Part shown: positions 48,701 to 64,000 of the stretch, one piece after another
Position numbering within the stretch: position 1 is the first letter of the stretch
How the letters are laid out: every line of letters begins with the position of its first letter
Source: a virus
Lineage: Duplodnaviria; Heunggongvirae; Uroviricota; Caudoviricetes
Direction: 5' to 3' (one strand)
DNA: 64,000 nucleotides
Virus record (IMG/VR): IMGVR_UViG_2687453424_000001
Program-made: the position numbers and the translations under genes
Notes under the pieces: generated by a model
The model's database searches: none
Seen by the model: only the letters and a program-made list of their open reading frames with translations
What the model was told of the DNA's origin: nothing

Positions 48701-50827
48701 TTAAAGCAAAGTCTTAAGAGAAGTTTACATAGAGAAATGCTTTTTCTTTTGGATAAATATAGAATATGATAAAGCAGATCCATCAACTTTCCATTTGGAA
48801 ATTACGTAATGTTGCATACTCTATATTGACATTGAACCTTTACGAGATTTCCACACCGCCACAAGATACACTCGTATGAACATCTTAAATTTGATCCTGG
48901 AAATATTTATATAGATGCTAAAGGATGGTTGATATTTGCTTTTTATCCACAGTTTTGGAATCTCATTCCTGTGGTTAAGAGGGGGGCAGTACAAGATTCA
49001 AATCTCTCAAAGAATTTCGCACCAAAATTTGTCTCAGAAAAGCCCTGCACCTGCATATATCCCTTTCACAGCTTATTGATTATAGTTAGATTCAATATTA
49101 GTTCCTATTTCTTGTTCACATAACTTGACGACTTGATTATATGATCTTTTGATATCAATTATCATATAACAATATATGTTACGTAAATAGAAAATAAATA
49201 CAACTGTTGAAATGTCATCTTGTATAAAGCCGAATTGTCCTTTTCTTGCGTGTCTGTTTTAAGCTTACAAGAAAATTGGAACCCAAAGAGTAAATTAGTA
49301 ATTCAGTTCTGAAAATGAACATGGAGTACACACGTGCCACTAGTGTTGAGACAATTTGCAACAATTCAAAGGGCAAACCGGCGACCATCTCCGGGGGCAG
49401 GTGATCCAACTTTGACAGAAACATTGCCAAACGTAAAGAGATAAAAAGGAGAACTGAAGAGAAGGAAAGGTCATCCCCCCACGAAACAAACTGTCTTTCG
49501 CTTCAAAAAAGCAAGAGAGAGAAATCCAGGAGACGGTCAACGGGAACGAATTTTACTACCTCCACCAGCCAATGGGAATTGGCAAAATTTAAAGTTGGTC
49601 AAGGTCTCAACAATGACTCACCCTTTCTCTATCCACTTCTGCCACCCTCTCCGGTTCGTCCGGCGACAAACCGTAGCACGGTTCCACGTGTGTTTGCTTC
49701 AGGAGGAAATCAACATCAATTAGAAAATGGGAATTTTTTTTCGGCCCTTTTCCACTCTATGCCTTCACGATTACATCAGAGTCTTTTCGCAATGTAATTT
49801 GGGTTTTGTCAAAACACACAGTGTTAGCCTTCAAAAGCCATTCTTCTTTACTTAAATGCTTGATTGATTTAATTTTCCAGAAAATAAAAATAAAATTTTT
49901 AATTACAATTATTTTATATTAATTTTTGAAAAAAATTATAATATAAATACTCAATACTCTTTTATATGAAAAATAAATCTATTTAGACCGGTTGGGTTGC
50001 GATGACCTTGAATTAGTACTCCCTGAACATTTTTAATCATACAGGGAGTACGGAAAAATAAATATACTGATTAGTTTGATCCTAGTTACAATTAGAATTG
50101 ACAAGTTTATGTTCATATACACAAACAATTGCCGGAAAGGATTGTTCTGCTCATACTTAATTATCGAGAAAAATTAATGGCCTTCCCCCTAAATTTATGT
50201 ACACCAATAAATAGTATCAAAATTGGGTAAAATTAAAAAAAATTCAAAACACTAAAAATAACACTTTAATCCCTTTTATTTTAAAATAATATTTTGTCTT
50301 TGACGTTTAACATGATTAGTAAATAATCAAAAAAATTAAACGGAATACTATATAAATATTTTAAGATACAAATTATCTTAAAGTGTCTTTTTGAAATGTT
50401 TCAAAAAAATTCAATTTCGATCACTTTACATAATCAATTTTAATAAAAAAAACTCATAATAAGCATAGAAAAATAAAAAACAAAATATATCCAAACTCGT
50501 TGAATATTAAGATACAAAGTGATGACGTAGCATTTTTGCATTAAGAAATTTCATATTTTCAAAATTAAATATATAAATAAAAATTTCAAAATATTATAAA
50601 TCGAAATTTCCTATTAATGACAATTTGGTATCCTCAAAGCAATTGCTATTGAAACTTCATTTTTCCTTTGAAAAGTATGGTGCATACGATTTTGAGATAT
50701 CCTAAAGCTCAACTGCACACGCATACAAACTCGATCCAAACTCTTGGAAGGTAGAAGAAGGTGCCGGATTGCCAAATTCCACAGTTTTACTATTTTGCTA
50801 TAAACTTTGATTAATTGTAGGTCAAGT

Positions 50828-50852
50828 GAAAGAAAGAAAGAAAGAAAGAAAG
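50828..50852. repeat. (GAAA)n microsatellite
   Basis: Direct reading: gaaagaaagaaagaaagaaagaaag. Confidence 0.9.
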
Positions 50853-52325
50853 GAGAAAGGAAGCATGAAAGGAAGATGAGAATAGAAAATCAGCCGTTTA
50901 GATAAAGATGAACATTAGGTTTGATTTTATCCATTCAATTGATTTTATTTTAAATTTTGAAAAATTGTATCAATCGAATTTTCACAAAATAAAATCAAAA
51001 TCTCTTGAATTATAATAAAAAATAAAAATTTTCATGAAATTTTTTTAAAAAATAATTGATTATTTTCATTTCTATAAATTAATTTAAAAATGAAAATAAA
51101 AATATCTTTCTCTTTTTCCACCTTAAAATCTGGGTGCTACATATATAGTAATGATTACCGTGGCCACCCTTTGCATTTCCTTCCCATAAACAAAATTGAT
51201 CATGTTCATATTACCATGATTATCCCCCAAAAATTTAAAAAAGGAAAAAATAAAGGAAGAAAGGTAATGGGTCAAAATGTCAAATACTTGGGAAAGGGGA
51301 CTAGAGACTAAGGAATAGGTCATGGGTTCATAGGTGTGAACCATAGGTCAGTGGGTCCCTTCATTCTTTTTCCATCATTAAATATGTGCATGCATGCCAC
51401 GTGGATGGTGATCGGAGGAGTCTACACGTGGGACATGACTGAATAACGCGTAGATGATGATCATTCAAAAGGACCAAAAAAAAAAAAAGAAGAAGAATGA
51501 ACGGCTTAAAGCTAAAAATATTTTAATTAAAATCATAAAAAATAAAGTAAAAAATATAAATATAACTTTTTTTTTATCTTTTTCACTTTTAGATTTTTTG
51601 CAATCCATGCAAAAATAAAAAAGCATTACCGCCTCCACGTACAGTCTTGGAAAGCCGTTCTTGTCACCTTCACACGGGTTCAAAAGAGAATAGACCACAA
51701 AGTTGACAATATGTTAATAATAAATAAATAAATAATATAGTAAAAAATTTCACCTACAAATTTTCCCCGTAATTTTAATATTTTTCACGTAATATTCTAC
51801 GTTTTCAATAAAATAAAAATTTTATTTGATAAAATTATTATGTAAACGTAAATTTTATTTTAAAAAGATTAAGAAAAAAAGAGAAATGAATAAGCTTGTG
51901 ATGCAAGTAATGTATGACTGGTTGCAGGGGAATAAAGCACCCACCACCAGGAAGACATGGTCGTCCGTCAGCGTGACGCCACGTGAACGCAATGGGAACA
52001 AAATGGTCCGAGATGGGGACAAAAAAAAATTAAAAAAAAAAGGGAACAGGAGAGAGAGAGTTTCCGCGTAGACAGATAGAGACCGAGGGAGGGGCGAGGT
52101 AGGGGAAGAAAAGAGAAAAGAGAATGAGAGGAAAGAAAAGCTTTCCTTGGTTTCGTTTTCTTACATCTGAACGAATAATAAAAACGCTCGCTTTGACACC
52201 TAAGCTTAAGCAAATCTATCTTTCTTCCAATCCCTTTATATTTTTTTTCTTTTTCTTTTTGAGGTTTCTTGAAGGGATTCTTGTGTTTGATCTTCTTGAG
52301 GGTTCACACTTGTTGTTCACACCTT

Positions 52326-52340
52326 CTCCATATAAATCTC
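52326..52340 (+). promoter_or_regulatory. candidate TATA box for the trihelix gene
   Basis: ctccatataaatctc lies about 150 bp upstream of the ATG at 52487. CACGTG G-box-like cores occur further upstream, around 51400 and 51985. Position-based inference only. Confidence 0.3.
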
Positions 52341-52486
52341 TGCTGGTATTTCTCTCTCCATCTTTTCTTCTTTTCTTTTCTCTTATTTTTTTTTTGGCTG
52401 TTTGAATGATAATCTTTTTGGTGGGTGCAAAAGGGAAGTCTCGGAAATCCTGTTTGCTTTGTCTGATTTGCTTGTGGTAGTTGGTC

Positions 52487-52750
52487 ATGGAGGGACGCCA
52501 TCACCATCCCCATCCACCTCAGCAACAGACTATGGGTGTTAACGTCGATGTTGATAGATTTCCTCAATGGAGTATTCAGGAGACGAAGGAGTTCCTGATG
52601 ATCAGAGCAGAGCTGGATCGGAGTTTCATGGAGACCAAGAGGAACAAGATGCTTTGGGAAGTTATCTCTACAAGGATGAGGGAAAAGGGTTATAATCGCA
52701 GCGCTGAACAGTGCAAGTGCAAGTGGAAAAACCTCGTTACTAGATATAAG
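52487..52750 (+). CDS. trihelix transcription factor, GT-3a/GT-3b-like; exon 1 of 2
   Basis: Translation MEGRHHHPHPPQQQTMGVNVDVDRFPQWSIQETKEFLMIRAELDRSFMETKRNKMLWEVISTRMREKGYNRSAEQCKCKWKNLVTRYK, a trihelix/Myb-SANT-like DNA-binding domain that matches Arabidopsis GT-3a (...IPQWSIEETKELLAIREELDQTFMETKRNKLLWEVV...SAEQCKSKWKNLVTRYK) as I recall it. This is the first ATG after an in-frame TAG. Donor AAG|gtaatc at 52750/52751. Confidence 0.85.
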
Positions 52751-52921
52751 GTAATCTAATATTCGAATTTTCCTTTTACCCTTTTTAGACGCAACGAATT
52801 ACGTTTCCAGGTAGCTTGTTTCTATTTTTGTTTAGCTAAAATAAATATGTATAACGAAAACCCTATTATCTATATATCACTGACATGGCAAGTGTTTATT
52901 TAATTGCCTGGTGATGTTCAG

Positions 52922-53458
52922 GGGTGTGAAACCATGGAAGCAGACGCCATGCGACAACAATTCCCATTTTACAATGAGTTGCAGGCCATATTCTCGTCAA
53001 GGATGCAAAGTATTCTATGGACCGATGAAGGAGGAGTGACCGGGTCGAAGAAGAAGGCAGTGCAGCTATCTTCAGAAGAGGATGAAGATATGGAGGAAAG
53101 CGAGTTAGATAAGGGTAGTGGCATTAGGAAGAAGAAAAAGGGGAAAACGGGTATTGGTGGGGGTGCAAGCGGAAGCAGCAATAATATAAAGGAGATTTTA
53201 GAGGATTTCATGAGGCAACAGATGCAGATGGAAATGCAATGGAGAGAAGCGTTCGAGGCAAGGGAAAACGAAAGGCGGTTGAAAGAGATGGAGTGGAGAC
53301 AGACCATGCAAGCGTTGGAGAATGAAAGGATAATGATGGATAGAAGATGGAGAGAAAAGGAAGAGCAAAGAAGAGTGAGGGAAGAAGCTAGGGCTGAGAA
53401 GAGAGACGCTCTCATCACAGCACTATTAAACAAGCTCAGAAGAGAAGAACACATGTAG
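52922..53458 (+). CDS. trihelix transcription factor, GT-3a/GT-3b-like; exon 2 of 2 (includes stop)
   Basis: Acceptor gatgttcag|GGGTGT. Translation GCETMEADAMRQQFPFYNELQAIFSSRMQ...IKEILEDFMRQQMQMEMQWREAFEARENERRLKEMEWRQTMQALENERIMMDRRWREKEEQRRVREEARAEKRDALITALLNKLRREEHM*. This is the conserved QQFPFYNE motif followed by a charged coiled-coil-like tail, as in GT-3. TAG stop at 53456-53458. Confidence 0.85.
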   Translation, partial: GCETMEADAMRQQFPFYNELQAIFSSRMQSILWTDEGGVTGSKKKAVQLSSEEDEDMEESELDKGSGIRKKKKGKTGIGGGASGSSNNIKEILEDFMRQQMQMEMQWREAFEARENERRLKEMEWRQTMQALENERIMMDRRWREKEEQRRVREEARAEKRDALITALLNKLRREEHM

Positions 53459-56400
53459 TACTAGTACTCCTCATCAAGTCAGCTTCTGAATCAGGTCACT
53501 TGTTTATTTTTCTTGTTTTTTTTGGAGAAGAGGAAGCTTTTCTGAGAGGTTTGTCCTGGAACTCTCATTCTGAGATCGATGTTTATTTTTTTAGTTCTAT
53601 GGATTTCCCTCCTCCTGTTTTGCCCACCGAGGCTTTCTTTTAGCTAGTAAAAGAATATAGAGCTTCCATTTTCCTTAGTTTTATATTGTTATTTTCTTCT
53701 TCAAGCCATCCTGTTATCATTGAGAGGTGACCATGAAGGCGCATTTCAAAAGCATCATGAATAAAAAGCTCCAAGCTCTCTAGATATCTCGGTGGTAGTT
53801 AAAAGAAACCAACCTACACAGCAAATGATCCACAAACGATAGTGTTCGAGATAATGGCTAAGGAAAGTAAATATTCTATGGAACATCAAATAGATTCATA
53901 GTGGACACTGCTGAAAATGGTCCATTCTTGCTAATTGCCTCTCAACTTCTCCAATGTTCCGTACCTTTCACTTACCTATACATACACCAATCTCTTCATA
54001 AATGTCCCTGGTCTGCATGTCTACCAGTGCCACTCCAGCTTGTGTCGTGCTTTCCCTTGACATTCATCAACCCATTTGTGGGAGCTTCCAATCCCACAAA
54101 TTTAAACCCCAAAGTTGTTAACAGCTAGCTTAGCTTTTTTACAATAACAATTTGGGTTTTTTCGTTACAATATCATCAGTATTTTCTTGCTTGACAAAAT
54201 CGACCAGAACAGGCTGACCAAGAGTGATGGCTGTCAAAACATGTGCTTGACTTTCTAGGATTATTACATCCTTGTGTTTGTTTCTACATTCTTCTGATGA
54301 GGTAGGGTAAAACTAGTGAGTTCAATGAGTGATAAAGAAGGTTACCATATGGGAGCCATACTCACAAAAATGATGCCCCTCCACGCAAAACTATAACAGG
54401 AAAACATGTCAAATTAGGGAGATTTAGATGAAAGGGTTCTATCTTGATAGAGAGTAGAGCTGAAATGGGTCTAGCGGATTTATAACATGTTGAAGCTCAG
54501 CTTCTTTGCTTTTGTTAATTTTTAGTACTAATAATCATTTGATTTTGTGCTTCAAATCACAAATAAAAAAATCATATAGTATACATTAATTATTATTTAT
54601 TTATATGTTCATACTGAAGCCAGTCGTTATCTCATTTACTATTGCATTTGTCTCATTGTAAGATGAGTTTGAGTGGCTTGCAATGCAAGTTTTCCTGGAT
54701 CATGTTTGTCACTGTGAGAATAATTCAAGACCAATTATTTCTTATACTCTTATAAATTATTTGATGTGAACCTAAAACCAACTTTAAGCTTTACTTTATA
54801 TATATGAATATGAATTAGGCATATTTCGTTTGCATTCAATCAAGGTGTTTTAAGGTATGCATGCACTAAAATCAGACCAATACTTACTTAAAATTAAGGG
54901 AAAAAAAACCTTAGAATATACATTAATGGACTTCCTTTCTAAAAGCTCTTTCATTTCACTTTATGAATTCGAAAGTTAATATTAAAATGAGATGAGGATC
55001 TTATTATAATAATTAACTTTAAGATTTCACTTTTTCAAGGTGTTTAAGTATATTTTGTGTTAGTTGGTAAGATCATGATAGCAAATGTATCAGTATGTGG
55101 GGTTGATTTCTAGGGTTATATATGTAGCTGACATTCTGTGTCTAGCTAGCACCTTCAAACATGAAAAAAGAAAGAGAGAAAAGAAAAGAAAATTCAATCC
55201 AAAAAAAAGAAAGAAAATAAAATAGCATCATGGGCCATTATGAACAAGAATTTTCTACCGTATAGTCTTTTTGTTTTTGTTGATGAAGACAGTGAATTAT
55301 TGTTAGACCCTCATGATTTGTATTTTTCAACTGGTGTATCAATTCAGTGAAAGTAGTGGAAGGTAGCTAGCTTGTTAGAGCTGACTCAAGGTTCTATCAT
55401 GTACCAAAAGACTGATATTCATGCTCAAAATGATGTTTTGCAAAATGTACGAGAAATTATCTAAAAAGGTTTGTCCAATCAAAAATAAGAATAATTTGTT
55501 TTCTTATACTTTGTTTGAGATAATGGTTCATTACATGTAAGTTGTCTAAATATAGACTTTTTGAGTATTGTTTCTTGTCACAATGACAAGTTAAGGACTC
55601 ATAAACTGTTTACTTTTACCATCTTGTTTACTTTATATGATTTGTACGTGGTCTCTTCTTAAAAGGCAAATAAAAAGTCTCGTATTTAAATTTAAATATG
55701 TGAAGAATATGAACTCGAGCAAAGAAAACTACAGAATAAGAAGAAATTTAACTTTGATTTGTGGATTATATCTGAAATTGATGTATGTTATGCTAGTAGT
55801 ACTCGTTTGAATGCAGCAGACTTTGAAGAATTTCTACCATATGAAAAAGTGTGAAAGCAAGCAATGAGTCTTCATGCGGTTGGAATACAAATTGGTATGC
55901 TTGAGTTTGCTTTTCACATCTCTCAGCAATCAGTCTTCATGTGATTACATTTGCAAGTGATGATTCAAGTAATTAATGTCATGCTGACTCTAAGCTTTCT
56001 TGAGTTATGGCTTTTTGTCAAACATTCTTTGCAAAGGTTCTGTGCTAGCATTCATTGCTGCATCTTTGCAAATCCCCTTATGTATGAACACTAATGATTT
56101 TGCCCTTTATTGTCTCTTGATCTTTTGCAACTGACTTGATATCATTTCATTCTTTTCCAGTTTACACTTTTACCTTATACCGTATTTATATATAGACAGT
56201 ATCCTTAGCAAGTTCATCAATCAATTCATTTACAGCCTAAAACTGTTCAATTGAGATTTAAAAGGTTCAGGATAGAATTTTTCGACCATTACCCATTACC
56301 CTCCTCGCCATTGACTCTATTTTTCTGTCTGCAAAAAATATGAACTGGTTCCATTTTTGTATGATTGCAAAGGAAACTATTTTCTCCACTATAGCTTTTT

Positions 56401-57234
56401 CATCATCACAGCCAGATATATACCTTGTTTAGGACAACCAACGGCAAATAATTGTACTGCTTGTTTGACTGTATGTATCTTCTCTTTGGTTTGATTTTCA
56501 AAATGGGATTTCACCTATATCATTGCTGGTTGTCATGTATTGGAGACCACCACAGTTACAGAAAATTTCACCGCGTTAATCCAGTCAACAGCTAGCTTGA
56601 GAGACATATCCTGAAACATGCAGACAACAAGGTGTCCAAATTTGCTGGACAGCTAACGTTGTAACCGTGTTTTTCTCTGGCAGGAGAGGCAAGAGATGAT
56701 AGTTATAAAATTCACCGACGTATATCTGTATGGTGTCTTGTGCCAGGATTTACCAGTAGAAAAACTTTGCAAATAGTAGCTGCCATTTCCCAATCAGGTT
56801 CAGATTGCCATTTCTACCAGATTCAGGCTTGTCAATTTGCCTGAGCAAATGCATAGGAAAAGTTCAGTCGATCCGAACCTATAATAAATATATACGTATA
56901 TTTCAGGATTTAGTTATCACCAACTTCTGCTGGTTTTCCATACCATGTTTCATTATTCTTGGAATGTTTTTATTTGCATATGCAAGAAAGTCAAAGCCAG
57001 CTAAATCTATACGGACTGTGTTGCATTTTAATTAATTACCATGTGAACCAAGAACCCACAATGCAACACTTTCTCTGACCAGACAAAACTACAGTTTTGG
57101 AGATCACGGTTGTAGTAGAAAACAAATTCAATAAAGTATAAGCTTGGTTAATTAATTAATTAATCTTTAACTATCACACTTCCTCACTCGTGTTCCATAC
57201 TACTTCAAAGGAAACCAATAAAAAAATATAATAA

Positions 57235-60200
57235 NNNNNNNNNNNNNNNNNNNNNNNNNNNNNNNNNNNNNNNNNNNNNNNNNNNNNNNNNNNNNNNNNN
57301 NNNNNNNNNNNNNNNNNNNNNNNNNNNNNNNNNNNNNNNNNNNNNNNNNNNNNNNNNNNNNNNNNNNNNNNNNNNNNNNNNNNNNNNNNNNNNNNNNNNN
57401 NNNNNNNNNNNNNNNNNNNNNNNNNNNNNNNNNNNNNNNNNNNNNNNNNNNNNNNNNNNNNNNNNNNNNNNNNNNNNNNNNNNNNNNNNNNNNNNNNNNN
57501 NNNNNNNNNNNNNNNNNNNNNNNNNNNNNNNNNNNNNNNNNNNNNNNNNNNNNNNNNNNNNNNNNNNNNNNNNNNNNNNNNNNNNNNNNNNNNNNNNNNN
57601 NNNNNNNNNNNNNNNNNNNNNNNNNNNNNNNNNNNNNNNNNNNNNNNNNNNNNNNNNNNNNNNNNNNNNNNNNNNNNNNNNNNNNNNNNNNNNNNNNNNN
57701 NNNNNNNNNNNNNNNNNNNNNNNNNNNNNNNNNNNNNNNNNNNNNNNNNNNNNNNNNNNNNNNNNNNNNNNNNNNNNNNNNNNNNNNNNNNNNNNNNNNN
57801 NNNNNNNNNNNNNNNNNNNNNNNNNNNNNNNNNNNNNNNNNNNNNNNNNNNNNNNNNNNNNNNNNNNNNNNNNNNNNNNNNNNNNNNNNNNNNNNNNNNN
57901 NNNNNNNNNNNNNNNNNNNNNNNNNNNNNNNNNNNNNNNNNNNNNNNNNNNNNNNNNNNNNNNNNNNNNNNNNNNNNNNNNNNNNNNNNNNNNNNNNNNN
58001 NNNNNNNNNNNNNNNNNNNNNNNNNNNNNNNNNNNNNNNNNNNNNNNNNNNNNNNNNNNNNNNNNNNNNNNNNNNNNNNNNNNNNNNNNNNNNNNNNNNN
58101 NNNNNNNNNNNNNNNNNNNNNNNNNNNNNNNNNNNNNNNNNNNNNNNNNNNNNNNNNNNNNNNNNNNNNNNNNNNNNNNNNNNNNNNNNNNNNNNNNNNN
58201 NNNNNNNNNNNNNNNNNNNNNNNNNNNNNNNNNNNNNNNNNNNNNNNNNNNNNNNNNNNNNNNNNNNNNNNNNNNNNNNNNNNNNNNNNNNNNNNNNNNN
58301 NNNNNNNNNNNNNNNNNNNNNNNNNNNNNNNNNNNNNNNNNNNNNNNNNNNNNNNNNNNNNNNNNNNNNNNNNNNNNNNNNNNNNNNNNNNNNNNNNNNN
58401 NNNNNNNNNNNNNNNNNNNNNNNNNNNNNNNNNNNNNNNNNNNNNNNNNNNNNNNNNNNNNNNNNNNNNNNNNNNNNNNNNNNNNNNNNNNNNNNNNNNN
58501 NNNNNNNNNNNNNNNNNNNNNNNNNNNNNNNNNNNNNNNNNNNNNNNNNNNNNNNNNNNNNNNNNNNNNNNNNNNNNNNNNNNNNNNNNNNNNNNNNNNN
58601 NNNNNNNNNNNNNNNNNNNNNNNNNNNNNNNNNNNNNNNNNNNNNNNNNNNNNNNNNNNNNNNNNNNNNNNNNNNNNNNNNNNNNNNNNNNNNNNNNNNN
58701 NNNNNNNNNNNNNNNNNNNNNNNNNNNNNNNNNNNNNNNNNNNNNNNNNNNNNNNNNNNNNNNNNNNNNNNNNNNNNNNNNNNNNNNNNNNNNNNNNNNN
58801 NNNNNNNNNNNNNNNNNNNNNNNNNNNNNNNNNNNNNNNNNNNNNNNNNNNNNNNNNNNNNNNNNNNNNNNNNNNNNNNNNNNNNNNNNNNNNNNNNNNN
58901 NNNNNNNNNNNNNNNNNNNNNNNNNNNNNNNNNNNNNNNNNNNNNNNNNNNNNNNNNNNNNNNNNNNNNNNNNNNNNNNNNNNNNNNNNNNNNNNNNNNN
59001 NNNNNNNNNNNNNNNNNNNNNNNNNNNNNNNNNNNNNNNNNNNNNNNNNNNNNNNNNNNNNNNNNNNNNNNNNNNNNNNNNNNNNNNNNNNNNNNNNNNN
59101 NNNNNNNNNNNNNNNNNNNNNNNNNNNNNNNNNNNNNNNNNNNNNNNNNNNNNNNNNNNNNNNNNNNNNNNNNNNNNNNNNNNNNNNNNNNNNNNNNNNN
59201 NNNNNNNNNNNNNNNNNNNNNNNNNNNNNNNNNNNNNNNNNNNNNNNNNNNNNNNNNNNNNNNNNNNNNNNNNNNNNNNNNNNNNNNNNNNNNNNNNNNN
59301 NNNNNNNNNNNNNNNNNNNNNNNNNNNNNNNNNNNNNNNNNNNNNNNNNNNNNNNNNNNNNNNNNNNNNNNNNNNNNNNNNNNNNNNNNNNNNNNNNNNN
59401 NNNNNNNNNNNNNNNNNNNNNNNNNNNNNNNNNNNNNNNNNNNNNNNNNNNNNNNNNNNNNNNNNNNNNNNNNNNNNNNNNNNNNNNNNNNNNNNNNNNN
59501 NNNNNNNNNNNNNNNNNNNNNNNNNNNNNNNNNNNNNNNNNNNNNNNNNNNNNNNNNNNNNNNNNNNNNNNNNNNNNNNNNNNNNNNNNNNNNNNNNNNN
59601 NNNNNNNNNNNNNNNNNNNNNNNNNNNNNNNNNNNNNNNNNNNNNNNNNNNNNNNNNNNNNNNNNNNNNNNNNNNNNNNNNNNNNNNNNNNNNNNNNNNN
59701 NNNNNNNNNNNNNNNNNNNNNNNNNNNNNNNNNNNNNNNNNNNNNNNNNNNNNNNNNNNNNNNNNNNNNNNNNNNNNNNNNNNNNNNNNNNNNNNNNNNN
59801 NNNNNNNNNNNNNNNNNNNNNNNNNNNNNNNNNNNNNNNNNNNNNNNNNNNNNNNNNNNNNNNNNNNNNNNNNNNNNNNNNNNNNNNNNNNNNNNNNNNN
59901 NNNNNNNNNNNNNNNNNNNNNNNNNNNNNNNNNNNNNNNNNNNNNNNNNNNNNNNNNNNNNNNNNNNNNNNNNNNNNNNNNNNNNNNNNNNNNNNNNNNN
60001 NNNNNNNNNNNNNNNNNNNNNNNNNNNNNNNNNNNNNNNNNNNNNNNNNNNNNNNNNNNNNNNNNNNNNNNNNNNNNNNNNNNNNNNNNNNNNNNNNNNN
60101 NNNNNNNNNNNNNNNNNNNNNNNNNNNNNNNNNNNNNNNNNNNNNNNNNNNNNNNNNNNNNNNNNNNNNNNNNNNNNNNNNNNNNNNNNNNNNNNNNNNN

Positions 60201-62389
60201 NNNNNNNNNNNNNNNNNNNNNNNNNNNNNNNNNNNNNNNNNNNNNNNNNNNNNNNNNNNNNNNNNNNNNNNNNNNNNNNNNNNNNNNNNNNNNNNNNNNN
60301 NNNNNNNNNNNNNNNNNNNNNNNNNNNNNNNNNNNNNNNNNNNNNNNNNNNNNNNNNNNNNNNNNNNNNNNNNNNNNNNNNNNNNNNNNNNNNNNNNNNN
60401 NNNNNNNNNNNNNNNNNNNNNNNNNNNNNNNNNNNNNNNNNNNNNNNNNNNNNNNNNNNNNNNNNNNNNNNNNNNNNNNNNNNNNNNNNNNNNNNNNNNN
60501 NNNNNNNNNNNNNNNNNNNNNNNNNNNNNNNNNNNNNNNNNNNNNNNNNNNNNNNNNNNNNNNNNNNNNNNNNNNNNNNNNNNNNNNNNNNNNNNNNNNN
60601 NNNNNNNNNNNNNNNNNNNNNNNNNNNNNNNNNNNNNNNNNNNNNNNNNNNNNNNNNNNNNNNNNNNNNNNNNNNNNNNNNNNNNNNNNNNNNNNNNNNN
60701 NNNNNNNNNNNNNNNNNNNNNNNNNNNNNNNNNNNNNNNNNNNNNNNNNNNNNNNNNNNNNNNNNNNNNNNNNNNNNNNNNNNNNNNNNNNNNNNNNNNN
60801 NNNNNNNNNNNNNNNNNNNNNNNNNNNNNNNNNNNNNNNNNNNNNNNNNNNNNNNNNNNNNNNNNNNNNNNNNNNNNNNNNNNNNNNNNNNNNNNNNNNN
60901 NNNNNNNNNNNNNNNNNNNNNNNNNNNNNNNNNNNNNNNNNNNNNNNNNNNNNNNNNNNNNNNNNNNNNNNNNNNNNNNNNNNNNNNNNNNNNNNNNNNN
61001 NNNNNNNNNNNNNNNNNNNNNNNNNNNNNNNNNNNNNNNNNNNNNNNNNNNNNNNNNNNNNNNNNNNNNNNNNNNNNNNNNNNNNNNNNNNNNNNNNNNN
61101 NNNNNNNNNNNNNNNNNNNNNNNNNNNNNNNNNNNNNNNNNNNNNNNNNNNNNNNNNNNNNNNNNNNNNNNNNNNNNNNNNNNNNNNNNNNNNNNNNNNN
61201 NNNNNNNNNNNNNNNNNNNNNNNNNNNNNNNNNNNNNNNNNNNNNNNNNNNNNNNNNNNNNNNNNNNNNNNNNNNNNNNNNNNNNNNNNNNNNNNNNNNN
61301 NNNNNNNNNNNNNNNNNNNNNNNNNNNNNNNNNNNNNNNNNNNNNNNNNNNNNNNNNNNNNNNNNNNNNNNNNNNNNNNNNNNNNNNNNNNNNNNNNNNN
61401 NNNNNNNNNNNNNNNNNNNNNNNNNNNNNNNNNNNNNNNNNNNNNNNNNNNNNNNNNNNNNNNNNNNNNNNNNNNNNNNNNNNNNNNNNNNNNNNNNNNN
61501 NNNNNNNNNNNNNNNNNNNNNNNNNNNNNNNNNNNNNNNNNNNNNNNNNNNNNNNNNNNNNNNNNNNNNNNNNNNNNNNNNNNNNNNNNNNNNNNNNNNN
61601 NNNNNNNNNNNNNNNNNNNNNNNNNNNNNNNNNNNNNNNNNNNNNNNNNNNNNNNNNNNNNNNNNNNNNNNNNNNNNNNNNNNNNNNNNNNNNNNNNNNN
61701 NNNNNNNNNNNNNNNNNNNNNNNNNNNNNNNNNNNNNNNNNNNNNNNNNNNNNNNNNNNNNNNNNNNNNNNNNNNNNNNNNNNNNNNNNNNNNNNNNNNN
61801 NNNNNNNNNNNNNNNNNNNNNNNNNNNNNNNNNNNNNNNNNNNNNNNNNNNNNNNNNNNNNNNNNNNNNNNNNNNNNNNNNNNNNNNNNNNNNNNNNNNN
61901 NNNNNNNNNNNNNNNNNNNNNNNNNNNNNNNNNNNNNNNNNNNNNNNNNNNNNNNNNNNNNNNNNNNNNNNNNNNNNNNNNNNNNNNNNNNNNNNNNNNN
62001 NNNNNNNNNNNNNNNNNNNNNNNNNNNNNNNNNNNNNNNNNNNNNNNNNNNNNNNNNNNNNNNNNNNNNNNNNNNNNNNNNNNNNNNNNNNNNNNNNNNN
62101 NNNNNNNNNNNNNNNNNNNNNNNNNNNNNNNNNNNNNNNNNNNNNNNNNNNNNNNNNNNNNNNNNNNNNNNNNNNNNNNNNNNNNNNNNNNNNNNNNNNN
62201 NNNNNNNNNNNNNNNNNNNNNNNNNNNNNNNNNNNNNNNNNNNNNNNNNNNNNNNNNNNNNNNNNNNNNNNNNNNNNNNNNNNNNNNNNNNNNNNNNNNN
62301 NNNNNNNNNNNNNNNNNNNNNNNNNNNNNNNNNNNNNNNNNNNNNNNNNNNNNNNNNNNNNNNNNNNNNNNNNNNNNNNNNNNNNNNNN
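57235..62389. other. assembly gap (N run, 5155 bp)
   Basis: Uninterrupted N. Confidence 1.
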
Positions 62390-63264
62390 AACAAAATTTT
62401 TAAAAAAAGAGCTTAAAAAAAATCTACAAATAGAAGCTTTTTCTTCTCTTCTTTTAAAAATATAAAAGAATTTTTATGTTTGTTTCAAAAATATCCTCAT
62501 TTATTAAAAATAATTACAATATTACATTTTAAAAAAATACCTTCTATGATAATTTTAACAAAAATATAACTTATAACAAAAACTTATAAAAAGAAATTTA
62601 CCAAACAACTTTAGTTTAATTTTAAAAGCTATTATTTTTCATAAGAGCTTCATAATAACTTTTAAGTTAGAAAAAAACCAGGCTAAACAAACTCTAAAGC
62701 AATTTACTTTGTATTATAACTTTATTAATTAATTACATTGTTAATTTTTTTAAAAATAATATTTTAAAAAAATACACAATTTTATTGTTAGGTGTCAAAG
62801 CTCAGATTGAATGAGATTTATAATACACTAGAATGAAAAAAAAAAAAACCCCAAACATATCCCACGCCCAAAATTGAAGATACTTGTACTACTAATAAAA
62901 TAAATTTGAAATAAAATTAATGGTTAAAGATTTAAAATTCATTTTATTGTATATTAAAATTAGGAATAATCTATTGTATCATGCTAACTGACATGATTAT
63001 TACTTGGTATACCAAGGTCCCAAAAGCCCGAAAATTTAACTAAGAGCCATTAAATTTATAAAGGGTGAGCAGTTGGCGGATTGTTATGCTACCTCACTAG
63101 TAAAGGTTTGTTTGTAACAAATCATTTAGAGTTGCCCCTATGACCTGATAATAACATGTCTTAGTTCCTTTATAATTAAAAATGTAACCCTCTCTGAACT
63201 TGTTAATCATTGCACAAAAAGTAAAAATGTAACCGTCTTTGAACTTGTTAACCCTTGCTTCTAT

Positions 63265-63592
63265 GGTTGTGTTTTTCGTAATTCCTTTTCTGTATGCTGA
63301 GCTCAGATATGGCAGAAAGAAAATGCGTCTTGATCACCAAATTGAAGATAAGCAACATGAACAAGGAGATTCTCAATGAGGAAGGGGCAAATCCTGTCGG
63401 TGATTCTAATGAAGAAGGCCACGACGTACGGTTGTGTTTATCGTAATTCCTTTCTGTGCGCTGATCTCAGATATGGCAGAAAGAAAGTGCGTCTTGATCA
63501 CCAAGTTAAGGATGAGCAACAAGAACAAGGAGATTCTCAATGAGGAAGGAGCTGATTCTACCGGTGATTCTAATAAAGAAGGCCATGGCGTA
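63265..63592 (+). repeat. tandem duplication (2 x about 164 bp) covering the 5'-UTR, ATG and first about 40 codons of the SAP30-like gene
   Basis: Copy 1 (63265-63428) reads ggttgtgtttttcgtaattcc...atatggcagaaagaaaatgcgtcttgatcaccaa...gaaggccacgacgta. Copy 2 (63429-63592) reads ggttgtgtttatcgtaattcc...atatggcagaaagaaagtgcgtcttgatcaccaa...gaaggccatggcgta. Identity is about 88% by eye. Confidence 0.85.
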
Positions 63593-63840
63593 AAATTGAA
63601 TGTGAACTTGGTAAAACTCGGGACAGATTCATTGAGAAGATATTGCAAGTTCTACAATATTGACAACATCGATTCTGATTCATCAAGGAACAAATGCTCA
63701 ATGCTCAGTGCTGTGCAGCAGCATTTTGCCTCACAACCACCATTGGATGAGCAACAAGTGATTCCTAACTTCGTTGATGCAGCGAGGAGACTGCACAAGG
63801 ATGGAAAGCCTAAAGATCGAGTGATTCATCATGCAATTGC
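63473..63840 (+). CDS. SAP30-like (Sin3-associated polypeptide, histone deacetylase complex subunit) protein; 5' part of CDS, 3' boundary unresolved and runs off the window
   Basis: Translation MAERKCVLITKLRMSNKNKEILNEEGADSTGDSNKEGHGVKLNVNLVKLGTDSLRRYCKFYNIDNIDSDSSRNKCSMLSAVQQHFASQPPLDEQQVIPNFVDAARRLHKDGKPKD. The pattern (V-x-L-x-KL...LRRY...F-N-...L...AVQ-HF-SQ...DE-QVI-x-F-V-x-AA-RL) matches the SAP30 Sin3-binding domain as I recall it. The open frame continues to 64000 but probably contains an intron that I cannot place. Confidence 0.55.
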
Positions 63841-64000
63841 TGGACTGATTCTGTTGAGGCAAATATATATATATATAATTTATGGATTTTGGTGGTTGAC
63901 GGATGATCTGGCTGCTGTTGGATATCTTTTACTTTTCTATGATGTTGAAATTTCTAAGGATCAGAATGATGCAGGTCCTTTTCTCTTTTTGCCTATCTAA

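What the first reader, a model, noticed from the sequence alone, without database searches (positions are those of the whole stretch)
63265..63840. Tandem duplication of the 5' end of the SAP30-like gene
The 164-bp unit carrying the leader, ATG and the first codons (MAERKCVLITKL...) is present twice in tandem. The two ATGs (63309 and 63473) are 164 bp apart, so they are out of frame with each other, and the upstream copy terminates at a TAA after about 46 codons (MAERKCVLITKLKISNMNKEILNEEGANPVGDSNEEGHDVRLCLS*). This could act as an upstream ORF, an alternative promoter or first exon, or be a recent non-functional duplicate.
Basis: seen in the sequence. Interest (0 to 1): 0.5.

Follow-up and report, generated by a model that had tools for sequence, protein, structure and literature searches.

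The report
Duplicated gene start in cacao SAP30-like paralogue
A 164-base piece carrying the start of a small, truncated SAP30-like gene of cacao really is present twice in a row, but it looks like an ordinary old duplication whose extra upstream copy most likely only hampers translation of a weakly constrained gene copy.

Summary
Window 63262-63592 holds two head-to-tail copies of a 164-bp unit, 87% identical. The two ATGs at 63309 and 63473 are out of frame with each other. The upstream ATG opens a 45-codon ORF that stops 26 nt before the second ATG. The window is Theobroma cacao chromosome sequence. The duplication is also present in two other cacao assemblies and in a contig assembled from an independent genomic read set, so it is not an assembly error. 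The downstream ORF carries a full Pfam SAP30_Sin3_bdg domain but lacks the N-terminal region of canonical ~200-aa plant SAP30-like proteins. It is one of four short cacao paralogues, and the other three carry the unit only once. Homology among the paralogues extends at least 250 nt upstream of the unit, so no promoter was duplicated. Copy 1 has lost the family's ancestral start codon (ATG to ATA). Two public gene models disagree. One starts at ATG2. The other starts at ATG1 and removes a 71-nt intron (63400-63470) to join the copies in frame. I found no transcript evidence. The most likely reading is that copy 1 is a relic in the 5' leader and acts, at most, as an inhibitory upstream ORF. This is ordinary and of low interest.

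The parts
63262..63425 (+). Copy 1 of the 164-bp unit: 47 nt of leader plus ATG1 and 39 codons.
   Evidence: TRF, the repeat finder and MAFFT. 15 of 117 coding positions differ from copy 2.
63426..63592 (+). Copy 2 of the unit. It runs on into the SAP30 Sin3-binding-domain ORF.
63309..63446 (+). 45-codon ORF opened by ATG1, out of frame with the main ORF, with a TAA at 63444-63446, 26 nt before ATG2. It is a candidate upstream ORF. The context cagatATGgc has a purine at -3 and G at +4, identical to the context of ATG2.
   Evidence: A gene caller also called it on Logan contig L001. It has no Pfam hit.
63473..64000 (+). Main ORF from ATG2, 175 codons unspliced. The last ~58 codons run through an (AT)n microsatellite and have no counterpart in the paralogues, so the true 3' end is uncertain.
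   Evidence: WRX25421.1 (139 aa) starts here.
63512..63514 (+). Ancestral start codon of the short-paralogue family (MSNKN...). It is conserved in paralogues A, C and D. The homologous codon in copy 1 (63348-63350) is ATA.
63617..63787 (+). SAP30_Sin3_bdg domain (PF13867), residues 49-105 of the 175-aa ORF, covering profile positions 1-53 of 53.
   Evidence: 57.8 bits against a cut-off of 22.2, E 1.4e-15.
63400..63470 (+). 71-nt GT..AG interval that the Matina gene model EOY07182.1 (TCM_021681) treats as an intron. Removing it joins copy 1 to copy 2 in frame (..EEGANPV-D-MAERK..).
   Evidence: Translating 63309-63399 joined to 63471-63973 reproduces the first 198 residues of EOY07182.1 exactly. 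The interval is 45% G+C and 34% T.
63174..63258 (+). Separate 45-bp tandem repeat (2 copies, 88% identical) directly upstream of copy 1, in the leader/promoter region shared with the paralogues.
   Evidence: Family D4. Homology to the paralogues' upstream regions.

Best explanation
This is an old, fixed 164-bp tandem duplication inside the 5' end of a truncated SAP30-like paralogue of Theobroma cacao (TCM_021681). The gene has the Sin3-binding domain only and sits in a cluster of three such copies, with a fourth on another chromosome. The unit starts in the shared leader and ends 39 codons into the ORF, so it carried an ATG but no promoter. Copy 2 stayed attached to the domain and is the gene's working start. 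Copy 1 is a relic in the 5' leader. If the gene is transcribed from the upstream region it shares with its paralogues, scanning ribosomes meet ATG1 first, in as good a context as ATG2. They would then translate a 45-codon out-of-frame ORF that ends 26 nt before ATG2. That should lower translation of the SAP30-like ORF and may expose the mRNA to nonsense-mediated decay. I read this as a by-product of local duplication in a weakly constrained gene copy, not as an evolved regulator. What is shown: the duplication, its fixation, its restriction to this paralogue, the lack of a duplicated promoter, and the loss of the ancestral ATG in copy 1. What is inferred: the position of the transcription start, the uORF effect, and the absence of adaptive function.
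For: The duplication is real and is fixed in three assemblies plus one independent genomic read set. Paralogues A, C and D each have a single copy of the unit. Paralogue homology continues at least 250 nt upstream of the unit's start, and that part is not repeated before copy 2. A, C and D have TATTGCAG where this gene has TATGGCAG, so the MAERK ATG is specific to this paralogue. The family start ATG (MSNKN) is kept in copy 2 and is ATA in copy 1. Polarising the copy differences with paralogue D gives 1 synonymous and 4 non-synonymous changes on the copy-1 lineage, close to the neutral ratio, and 4 synonymous and 5 non-synonymous on the copy-2 lineage (alignment, tests). Both ATGs have the same context. 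uORFs longer than 35 codons can trigger NMD in plants (PMC3315328). The gene as a whole looks weakly constrained. Domain dN/dS is 0.5-0.9 against its paralogues. It has a compensated -1/+7 frameshift and no stop where its paralogues have theirs. The two public gene models conflict. Only three proteins sit in the 90% cluster, none with a RefSeq XP accession.
Against: No transcript data could be reached. The only Logan contig carrying these ORFs comes from a run that also covers intergenic DNA, so it is genomic. The transcription start is therefore unknown, and the gene may not be expressed at all. The compensated frameshift in the domain and the overall copy1-copy2 dN/dS of 0.3 hint at some coding constraint. 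The substitution counts are far too small for significance (p 0.07-1.0). A public model (EOY07182.1) offers a spliced, in-frame alternative.
Confidence: 0.42

Rival explanations
1. In-frame N-terminal repeat. The transcript starts at or before ATG1, and a 71-nt intron (63400-63470) is spliced out. The result is a protein whose first 30 residues are followed by a near-copy of themselves and then the SAP30 domain, as in gene model EOY07182.1.
For: GT and AG sit exactly where needed, and the frame is restored through one joining codon, GAT. The spliced translation matches EOY07182.1 for 198 of 198 residues. The acceptor lies in sequence that is pyrimidine-rich and ends in CAG in both copies.
Against: The rest of that model is clearly unreliable. 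It reads through an (AT)n microsatellite and fuses the next paralogue fragment to reach 339 aa. The other annotation, WRX25421.1, starts at ATG2. The interval is 45% G+C and half of it is former coding sequence. From general knowledge, dicot introns are usually much more A+U-rich. No protein with the spliced junction exists in the 5.8-billion-protein collection other than EOY07182.1 itself.
Confidence: 0.12
2. Copy 1 is never part of the mature mRNA. Either transcription starts inside or after copy 1, or an upstream non-coding exon is spliced to the duplicated acceptor in front of copy 2 (..ctcAG|atATGgcAG|aaag). In that case copy 1 is promoter or intron sequence with no effect on translation.
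For: Paralogues A, C and D have a GTGAAT...TTGCAG pair upstream of their start codon that could be a short 5'-UTR intron. The unit begins inside that interval, so its acceptor-like end was duplicated.
Against: At the homologous position this gene has GTTAAC/GTTAAT instead of GTGAAT, which is a poorer donor. None of these introns is supported by transcripts. No promoter-like sequence was duplicated along with copy 2.
Confidence: 0.2
3. The whole gene is an unexpressed pseudogene, and the duplication is one of several lesions with no functional consequence.
For: Domain dN/dS is up to 0.89 against paralogue D. There is a -1/+7 frame disturbance, and the stop codon found in the paralogues is absent. 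Gene models conflict and there is no RefSeq-type protein in the cluster. Neighbouring fragment C is truncated by a stop inside the domain. No transcript-derived ORF was found in the collection.
Against: The domain ORF is intact and scores well above the Pfam threshold over the full profile. The frameshift is compensated within four codons, which is unlikely without selection for the reading frame. Failing to find transcripts in this collection is weak evidence of absence.
Confidence: 0.25
4. Assembly artefact: a falsely expanded repeat.
For: None found.
Against: Both copies, with their 21 fixed differences, appear in three independently built cacao assemblies and in a short-read contig from another accession.
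Confidence: 0.01

Closest known systems
Plant SAP30-like proteins (Arabidopsis AFR1/At1g75060 and AFR2/At1g19330; about 200-aa orthologues in Citrus, Melia, Gossypium, Corchorus and Camellia)
   Same: It has a C-terminal Sin3-binding region (Pfam PF13867) covered over the full profile. That region aligns well with these proteins. AFR1 and AFR2 were recognised through this same region (PMC3760768).
   Different: It lacks the conserved N-terminal block (..VLKNGVEVKLQRNALSVLE..PTGNEVD..) of the ~200-aa proteins. It belongs to a group of short, domain-only copies seen so far in Malvaceae: Theobroma, Pterospermum and Reevesia. Binding to Sin3/SNL proteins is untested.
Upstream ORFs that repress translation or trigger NMD in plant mRNAs
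   Same: It has an out-of-frame AUG in good context, a 45-codon ORF and a 26-nt gap before the main AUG. The length is above the 35-codon size reported to trigger NMD in plants (PMC3315328).
   Different: Its peptide is not conserved. It is a frame-shifted copy of the gene's own N-terminus, is found only in this paralogue, and shows a neutral-looking substitution pattern. Its presence in the mRNA is not shown.
Small tandem segmental duplications within genes (replication slippage or unequal exchange), including the proposed origin of introns by tandem duplication
   Same: The copies are head-to-tail with no spacer and share a few bases at the junctions (..cTAtGG.. and ..gTAcGG..). The neighbourhood has other local repeats of 45 bp, 7 bp and about 253 bp.
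   Different: The intron in model EOY07182.1 is 71 nt, not one unit length, and no AGGT site is shared by both copies (read from the sequence). The classic duplication-to-intron scheme therefore does not apply.

Membership tests
SAP30 / SAP30-like (Sin3-associated polypeptide 30) | Sin3-binding region (Pfam PF13867 SAP30_Sin3_bdg) present | tested here: met
   57.8 bits (cut-off 22.2), E 1.4e-15, residues 49-105, profile positions 1-53 of 53.
SAP30 / SAP30-like (Sin3-associated polypeptide 30) | N-terminal SAP30 zinc-finger domain, as in animal SAP30 and SAP30L | tested here: not met
   no Pfam family other than PF13867 passes threshold in the 175-aa ORF. From general knowledge, plant SAP30-related proteins also lack it.
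Canonical plant SAP30-like (AFR1/AFR2-type, about 200 aa) | Conserved N-terminal block upstream of the Sin3-binding region | tested here: not met
   the window protein and cacao paralogues P0002 and P0007 begin about 30-45 residues before the domain and have nothing aligned to the VLKNGVEVKLQRNALSVLE block.
Canonical plant SAP30-like (AFR1/AFR2-type, about 200 aa) | Physical association with Sin3/SNL and HDA19-type deacetylase | not testable with these tools
   Needs two-hybrid or co-immunoprecipitation experiments. Shown for AFR1 and AFR2 in PMC3760768.
Regulatory upstream ORF | AUG and in-frame stop upstream of the main AUG on the same strand | tested here: met
   ORF 63309-63446, main AUG at 63473.
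Regulatory upstream ORF | The ORF lies within the mature 5' UTR, meaning the transcription start is upstream and the ORF is not spliced out | not testable with these tools
   No transcript data. Logan run DRR396118 is genomic.
Regulatory upstream ORF | Conservation of the uORF in orthologues or paralogues | tested here: not met
   Paralogues A, C and D have a single unit and no ATG at the homologous position. Orthologues from other species could not be obtained.
Tandem duplication | Two adjacent head-to-tail copies, well above chance similarity, reproducible across assemblies | tested here: met

The most novel reading that the evidence does not exclude
The duplication, together with the ATG that arose only in this paralogue, gave the cacao SAP30-like copy a new layer of control or a new product. 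One version is a young 45-codon uORF that makes expression of a Sin3-binding-domain-only protein (a possible competitor of full-length SAP30-like proteins for Sin3) conditional. The other is a newly born 71-nt intron that yields a protein with a repeated N-terminal peptide.
Probability: 0.1. Interest if true: 0.3.

Novelty: new member of a known kind. Interest (0 to 1): 0.1.

Why it matters
It matters little beyond annotation. The duplication explains why two public cacao gene models for this locus disagree about the start codon: EOY07182.1 starts at ATG1 with a 71-nt intron, and WRX25421.1 starts at ATG2. It also shows that the family's ancestral start is a third ATG, at 63512. If the locus proves to be expressed, it would be a small, datable example of a tandem duplication turning a gene's own N-terminus into an upstream ORF, in a family of domain-only SAP30-like copies that may be restricted to Malvaceae.

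Tried and rejected
1. I searched for transcript evidence. The only contig in the public collection that carries either ORF exactly is Logan DRR396118_380252. I tested whether that run is RNA-seq by looking up an intergenic ORF (51090-51311). The same run covers it, so it is genomic sequencing and says nothing about transcription. A second intergenic ORF was not on record.

2. Literature searches for the run accession and for the locus tags TCM_021681 and TCM_021680 found nothing about this gene.

3. I compared the Pterospermum homologue locus (L003) and Logan contig L006 with the window at the DNA level and got no alignment. They cannot date the duplication.

4. I looked by eye for an AGGT site shared by both copies, which would allow exactly one unit to be spliced out. 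There is none.

5. A relative-rate and dN/dS comparison of the two copies gave counts too small to be significant.

6. I did not use the bacterial promoter/terminator scan, tRNA, Rfam, phage or plasmid tools, because the window is plant nuclear DNA.

7. I did not run structure prediction. The domain assignment is already clear, and a structure would not bear on the duplication.

Full report
**Observation**

The region was read directly. Tandem Repeats Finder reports one array at 63265-63592 with period 164, 2.0 copies, 87% matches, no indels and score 516. The repeat finder finds the same pair with 164-nt spacing. MAFFT places copy 1 at 63262-63425 and copy 2 at 63426-63592, with a single 1-nt indel in the 47-nt leader part.

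ATG1 (63309) opens a 45-codon ORF, MAERKCVLITKLKISNMNKEILNEEGANPVGDSNEEGHDVRLCLS, which stops at the TAA at 63444-63446. ATG2 (63473) opens a 175-codon ORF that ends at the last base of the window. The 164-nt offset puts the two ATGs in different frames, and 26 nt separate the first stop from ATG2. The unit is found nowhere else in the unmasked part of the window.

**Where the window comes from, and whether the repeat is an artefact**

44% of the window is hard-masked N, in seven blocks. The 175-aa ORF is identical to a protein called on a 930-nt Logan contig of run DRR396118. That contig is 100% identical to window 63167-64000 and contains both copies.

The 90% cluster of that protein holds two Theobroma cacao entries: EOY07182.1 (TCM_021681, Matina 1-6 assembly) and WRX25421.1. 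Window 62390-64000 aligns at 98.0% to GCA_035896635.1 (CP139295.1) and at 99.3% to GCA_000403535.1 (CM001883.1). Window 50074-57234 aligns at 99.9% to the latter. The window is therefore cacao. A three-way alignment shows both copies in all three assemblies, with only two SNPs in the duplicated stretch.

Run DRR396118 also yields a contig over intergenic DNA at 50549-51472, with five mismatches to the window. It is therefore genomic sequencing of another accession. That confirms the repeat independently but gives no information about transcription.

**What the gene is**

The ATG2 ORF has a complete Pfam SAP30_Sin3_bdg domain at residues 49-105, covering profile positions 1-53 of 53, with 57.8 bits against a cut-off of 22.2. 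The 45-aa ORF matches nothing.

A profile search found canonical ~200-aa SAP30-like proteins in Citrus, Melia, Gossypium, Corchorus and Camellia. It also found short proteins in Theobroma, Pterospermum and Reevesia. In the alignment, the canonical proteins share an N-terminal block (VLKNGVEVKLQRNALSVLE..PTGNEVD) that the window protein and its cacao relatives lack.

The window gene, which I call B, is one of four short cacao copies:
- A is TCM_021680 / WRX25419.1, 82 aa.
- C is a fragment, QQP08_017907, with a stop inside the domain. A and C lie within 5 kb of B.
- D is 101 aa and lies on another chromosome.

Arabidopsis AFR1 and AFR2 were identified as SAP30 relatives through this same Sin3-binding region (PMC3760768).

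**Anatomy of the duplication relative to the paralogues**

A, C and D each contain the unit once. Their similarity to B continues at least 250 nt upstream of where the unit begins. The duplicated piece therefore starts inside the shared leader and does not include whatever promoter the family uses. Copy 2 has only copy 1 in front of it.

At the position of the MAERK ATG, A, C and D read TATTGCAG where B reads TATGGCAG in both copies. That ATG therefore arose in B before the tandem duplication.

The start codon annotated in A, C and D (ATG AGC A/GAC AAG, MS[N/D]K) is conserved in copy 2 at 63512. It is ATA in copy 1.

A, C and D also have a GTGAAT...TTGCAG pair in the leader that could be a short 5'-UTR intron. 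B has GTTAAC/GTTAAT at the donor position. None of this is backed by transcripts.

**Age and selection**

The copies differ at 15 of 117 coding positions (12.8%) and to a similar degree in the leader. B differs from its neighbour A by dS 0.16 in the domain. The tandem duplication is thus about as old as the A/B split, and it is far older than the 0.6-2% differences among cacao assemblies. It is not recent.

I polarised the differences using D (alignment). The copy-1 lineage has 7 substitutions: 2 in the leader, 1 synonymous and 4 non-synonymous, including the loss of the ancestral ATG. The copy-2 lineage has 11 substitutions plus one indel: 2 in the leader, 4 synonymous and 5 non-synonymous. 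The copy-1 ratio is what neutrality predicts. The copy-2 ratio leans towards constraint, but neither is significant (p = 1.0 and 0.07).

Domain dN/dS among the paralogues is 0.5-0.9. B also has a 1-nt deletion followed by a 7-nt duplication (63690-63712) that restores the frame after four codons. It lacks a stop where its paralogues end, so its ORF runs on through an (AT)n microsatellite. The locus is weakly constrained, though the compensated frameshift hints that the frame has mattered.

**Existing annotations**

WRX25421.1 (139 aa) starts at ATG2. EOY07182.1 (339 aa) starts at ATG1. Joining 63309-63399 to 63471-63973 reproduces the first 198 residues of EOY07182.1 exactly. That model therefore removes a 71-nt GT..AG interval (63400-63470) and joins the copies in frame through a GAT codon.

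The same model then reads through the microsatellite and fuses fragment C, so it is not trustworthy. The 71-nt interval is 45% G+C, and half of it is former coding sequence. From general knowledge of dicot introns, that is unfavourable for splicing. No other protein with that junction exists in the collection searched.

**Most likely mechanism**

Several observations point the same way:
- No promoter was duplicated.
- Copy 1 lost the family start codon.
- Copy 1 shows a neutral-looking substitution pattern.
- Both MAERK ATGs share the same good context, cagatATGgc.

Given these, the simplest reading is that copy 1 is a relic lying in the 5' leader. If it is transcribed, it would be translated first as a 45-codon out-of-frame uORF ending 26 nt before ATG2. 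That should reduce main-ORF translation. Its length is above the 35-codon size reported to trigger NMD in plants (PMC3315328). This effect is inferred, not shown.

The rivals are:
- Copy 1 is absent from the mature mRNA because of a downstream start or splicing to the duplicated acceptor.
- The copies are spliced in frame as in EOY07182.1.
- The whole gene is a silent pseudogene.

Transcript data would separate all of these at once.

**Verdict**

The feature is real and correctly described. It is a small tandem duplication in a weakly constrained, truncated, lineage-restricted paralogue. Nothing suggests a function beyond a possible incidental uORF. Its practical value is in resolving conflicting gene models. 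Interest is low.

Noticed in passing
window 63174-63258: A separate 45-bp tandem repeat (2 copies, 88% identical) lies immediately upstream of copy 1, within leader/promoter sequence shared with the paralogues. Together with the 164-bp unit, it shows the 5' region of this gene has been duplicated locally at least twice.
   Followed up: partly
window 63690-63712: Compensated frameshift inside the SAP30 domain. Relative to paralogues A, C and D, the gene has lost one G (AGGGAA to AGGAA) and gained 7 nt by duplication of AATGCTC. This changes ..REQMLNAVQQ.. to ..RNKCSMLSAVQQ.. and restores the frame.
   Followed up: partly
window 63820-64000: The ORF has no stop where its paralogues end. It continues for about 58 codons through an (AT)7.5 microsatellite (63863-63877), giving a hydrophobic tail. 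Public models handle this differently: WRX25421.1 places a donor at 63819 and a ~2.1-kb intron, while EOY07182.1 reads through.
   Followed up: partly
window 62390-62639; L004 8826-9328; L002 16561-16810: An AT-rich unit of about 250 bp upstream of the gene is tandemly repeated in the other cacao assemblies. In the window one copy abuts the masked block 57235-62389. That masked block is 5155 nt, whereas the Matina assembly has only about 1.9 kb between the flanking matches, so the window probably carries a larger insertion or repeat expansion.
   Followed up: no
window 62397-62695 vs L002 10436-10728 (inverted): About 300 nt upstream of the window gene is 82-85% identical, in inverted orientation, to sequence just downstream of paralogue A. 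The local SAP30-like cluster therefore arose in part by an inverted segmental duplication.
   Followed up: no
window 52481-53458 (+): The neighbouring gene is a trihelix-type gene (Pfam Myb_DNA-bind_4). It is annotated as a 266-aa product at the matching place in the Matina assembly (L004 2417-3388).
   Followed up: no
L002 10240-10345: The 3' end of paralogue A is itself tandemly duplicated. About 60 nt, ..cattgcacgagtaacaagtgattgctgaattcgttgatgc..aggactcggcccaaggataaaaaaaattaaagagacct, repeat after the stop codon. This is another small local duplication in the same gene family.
   Followed up: no
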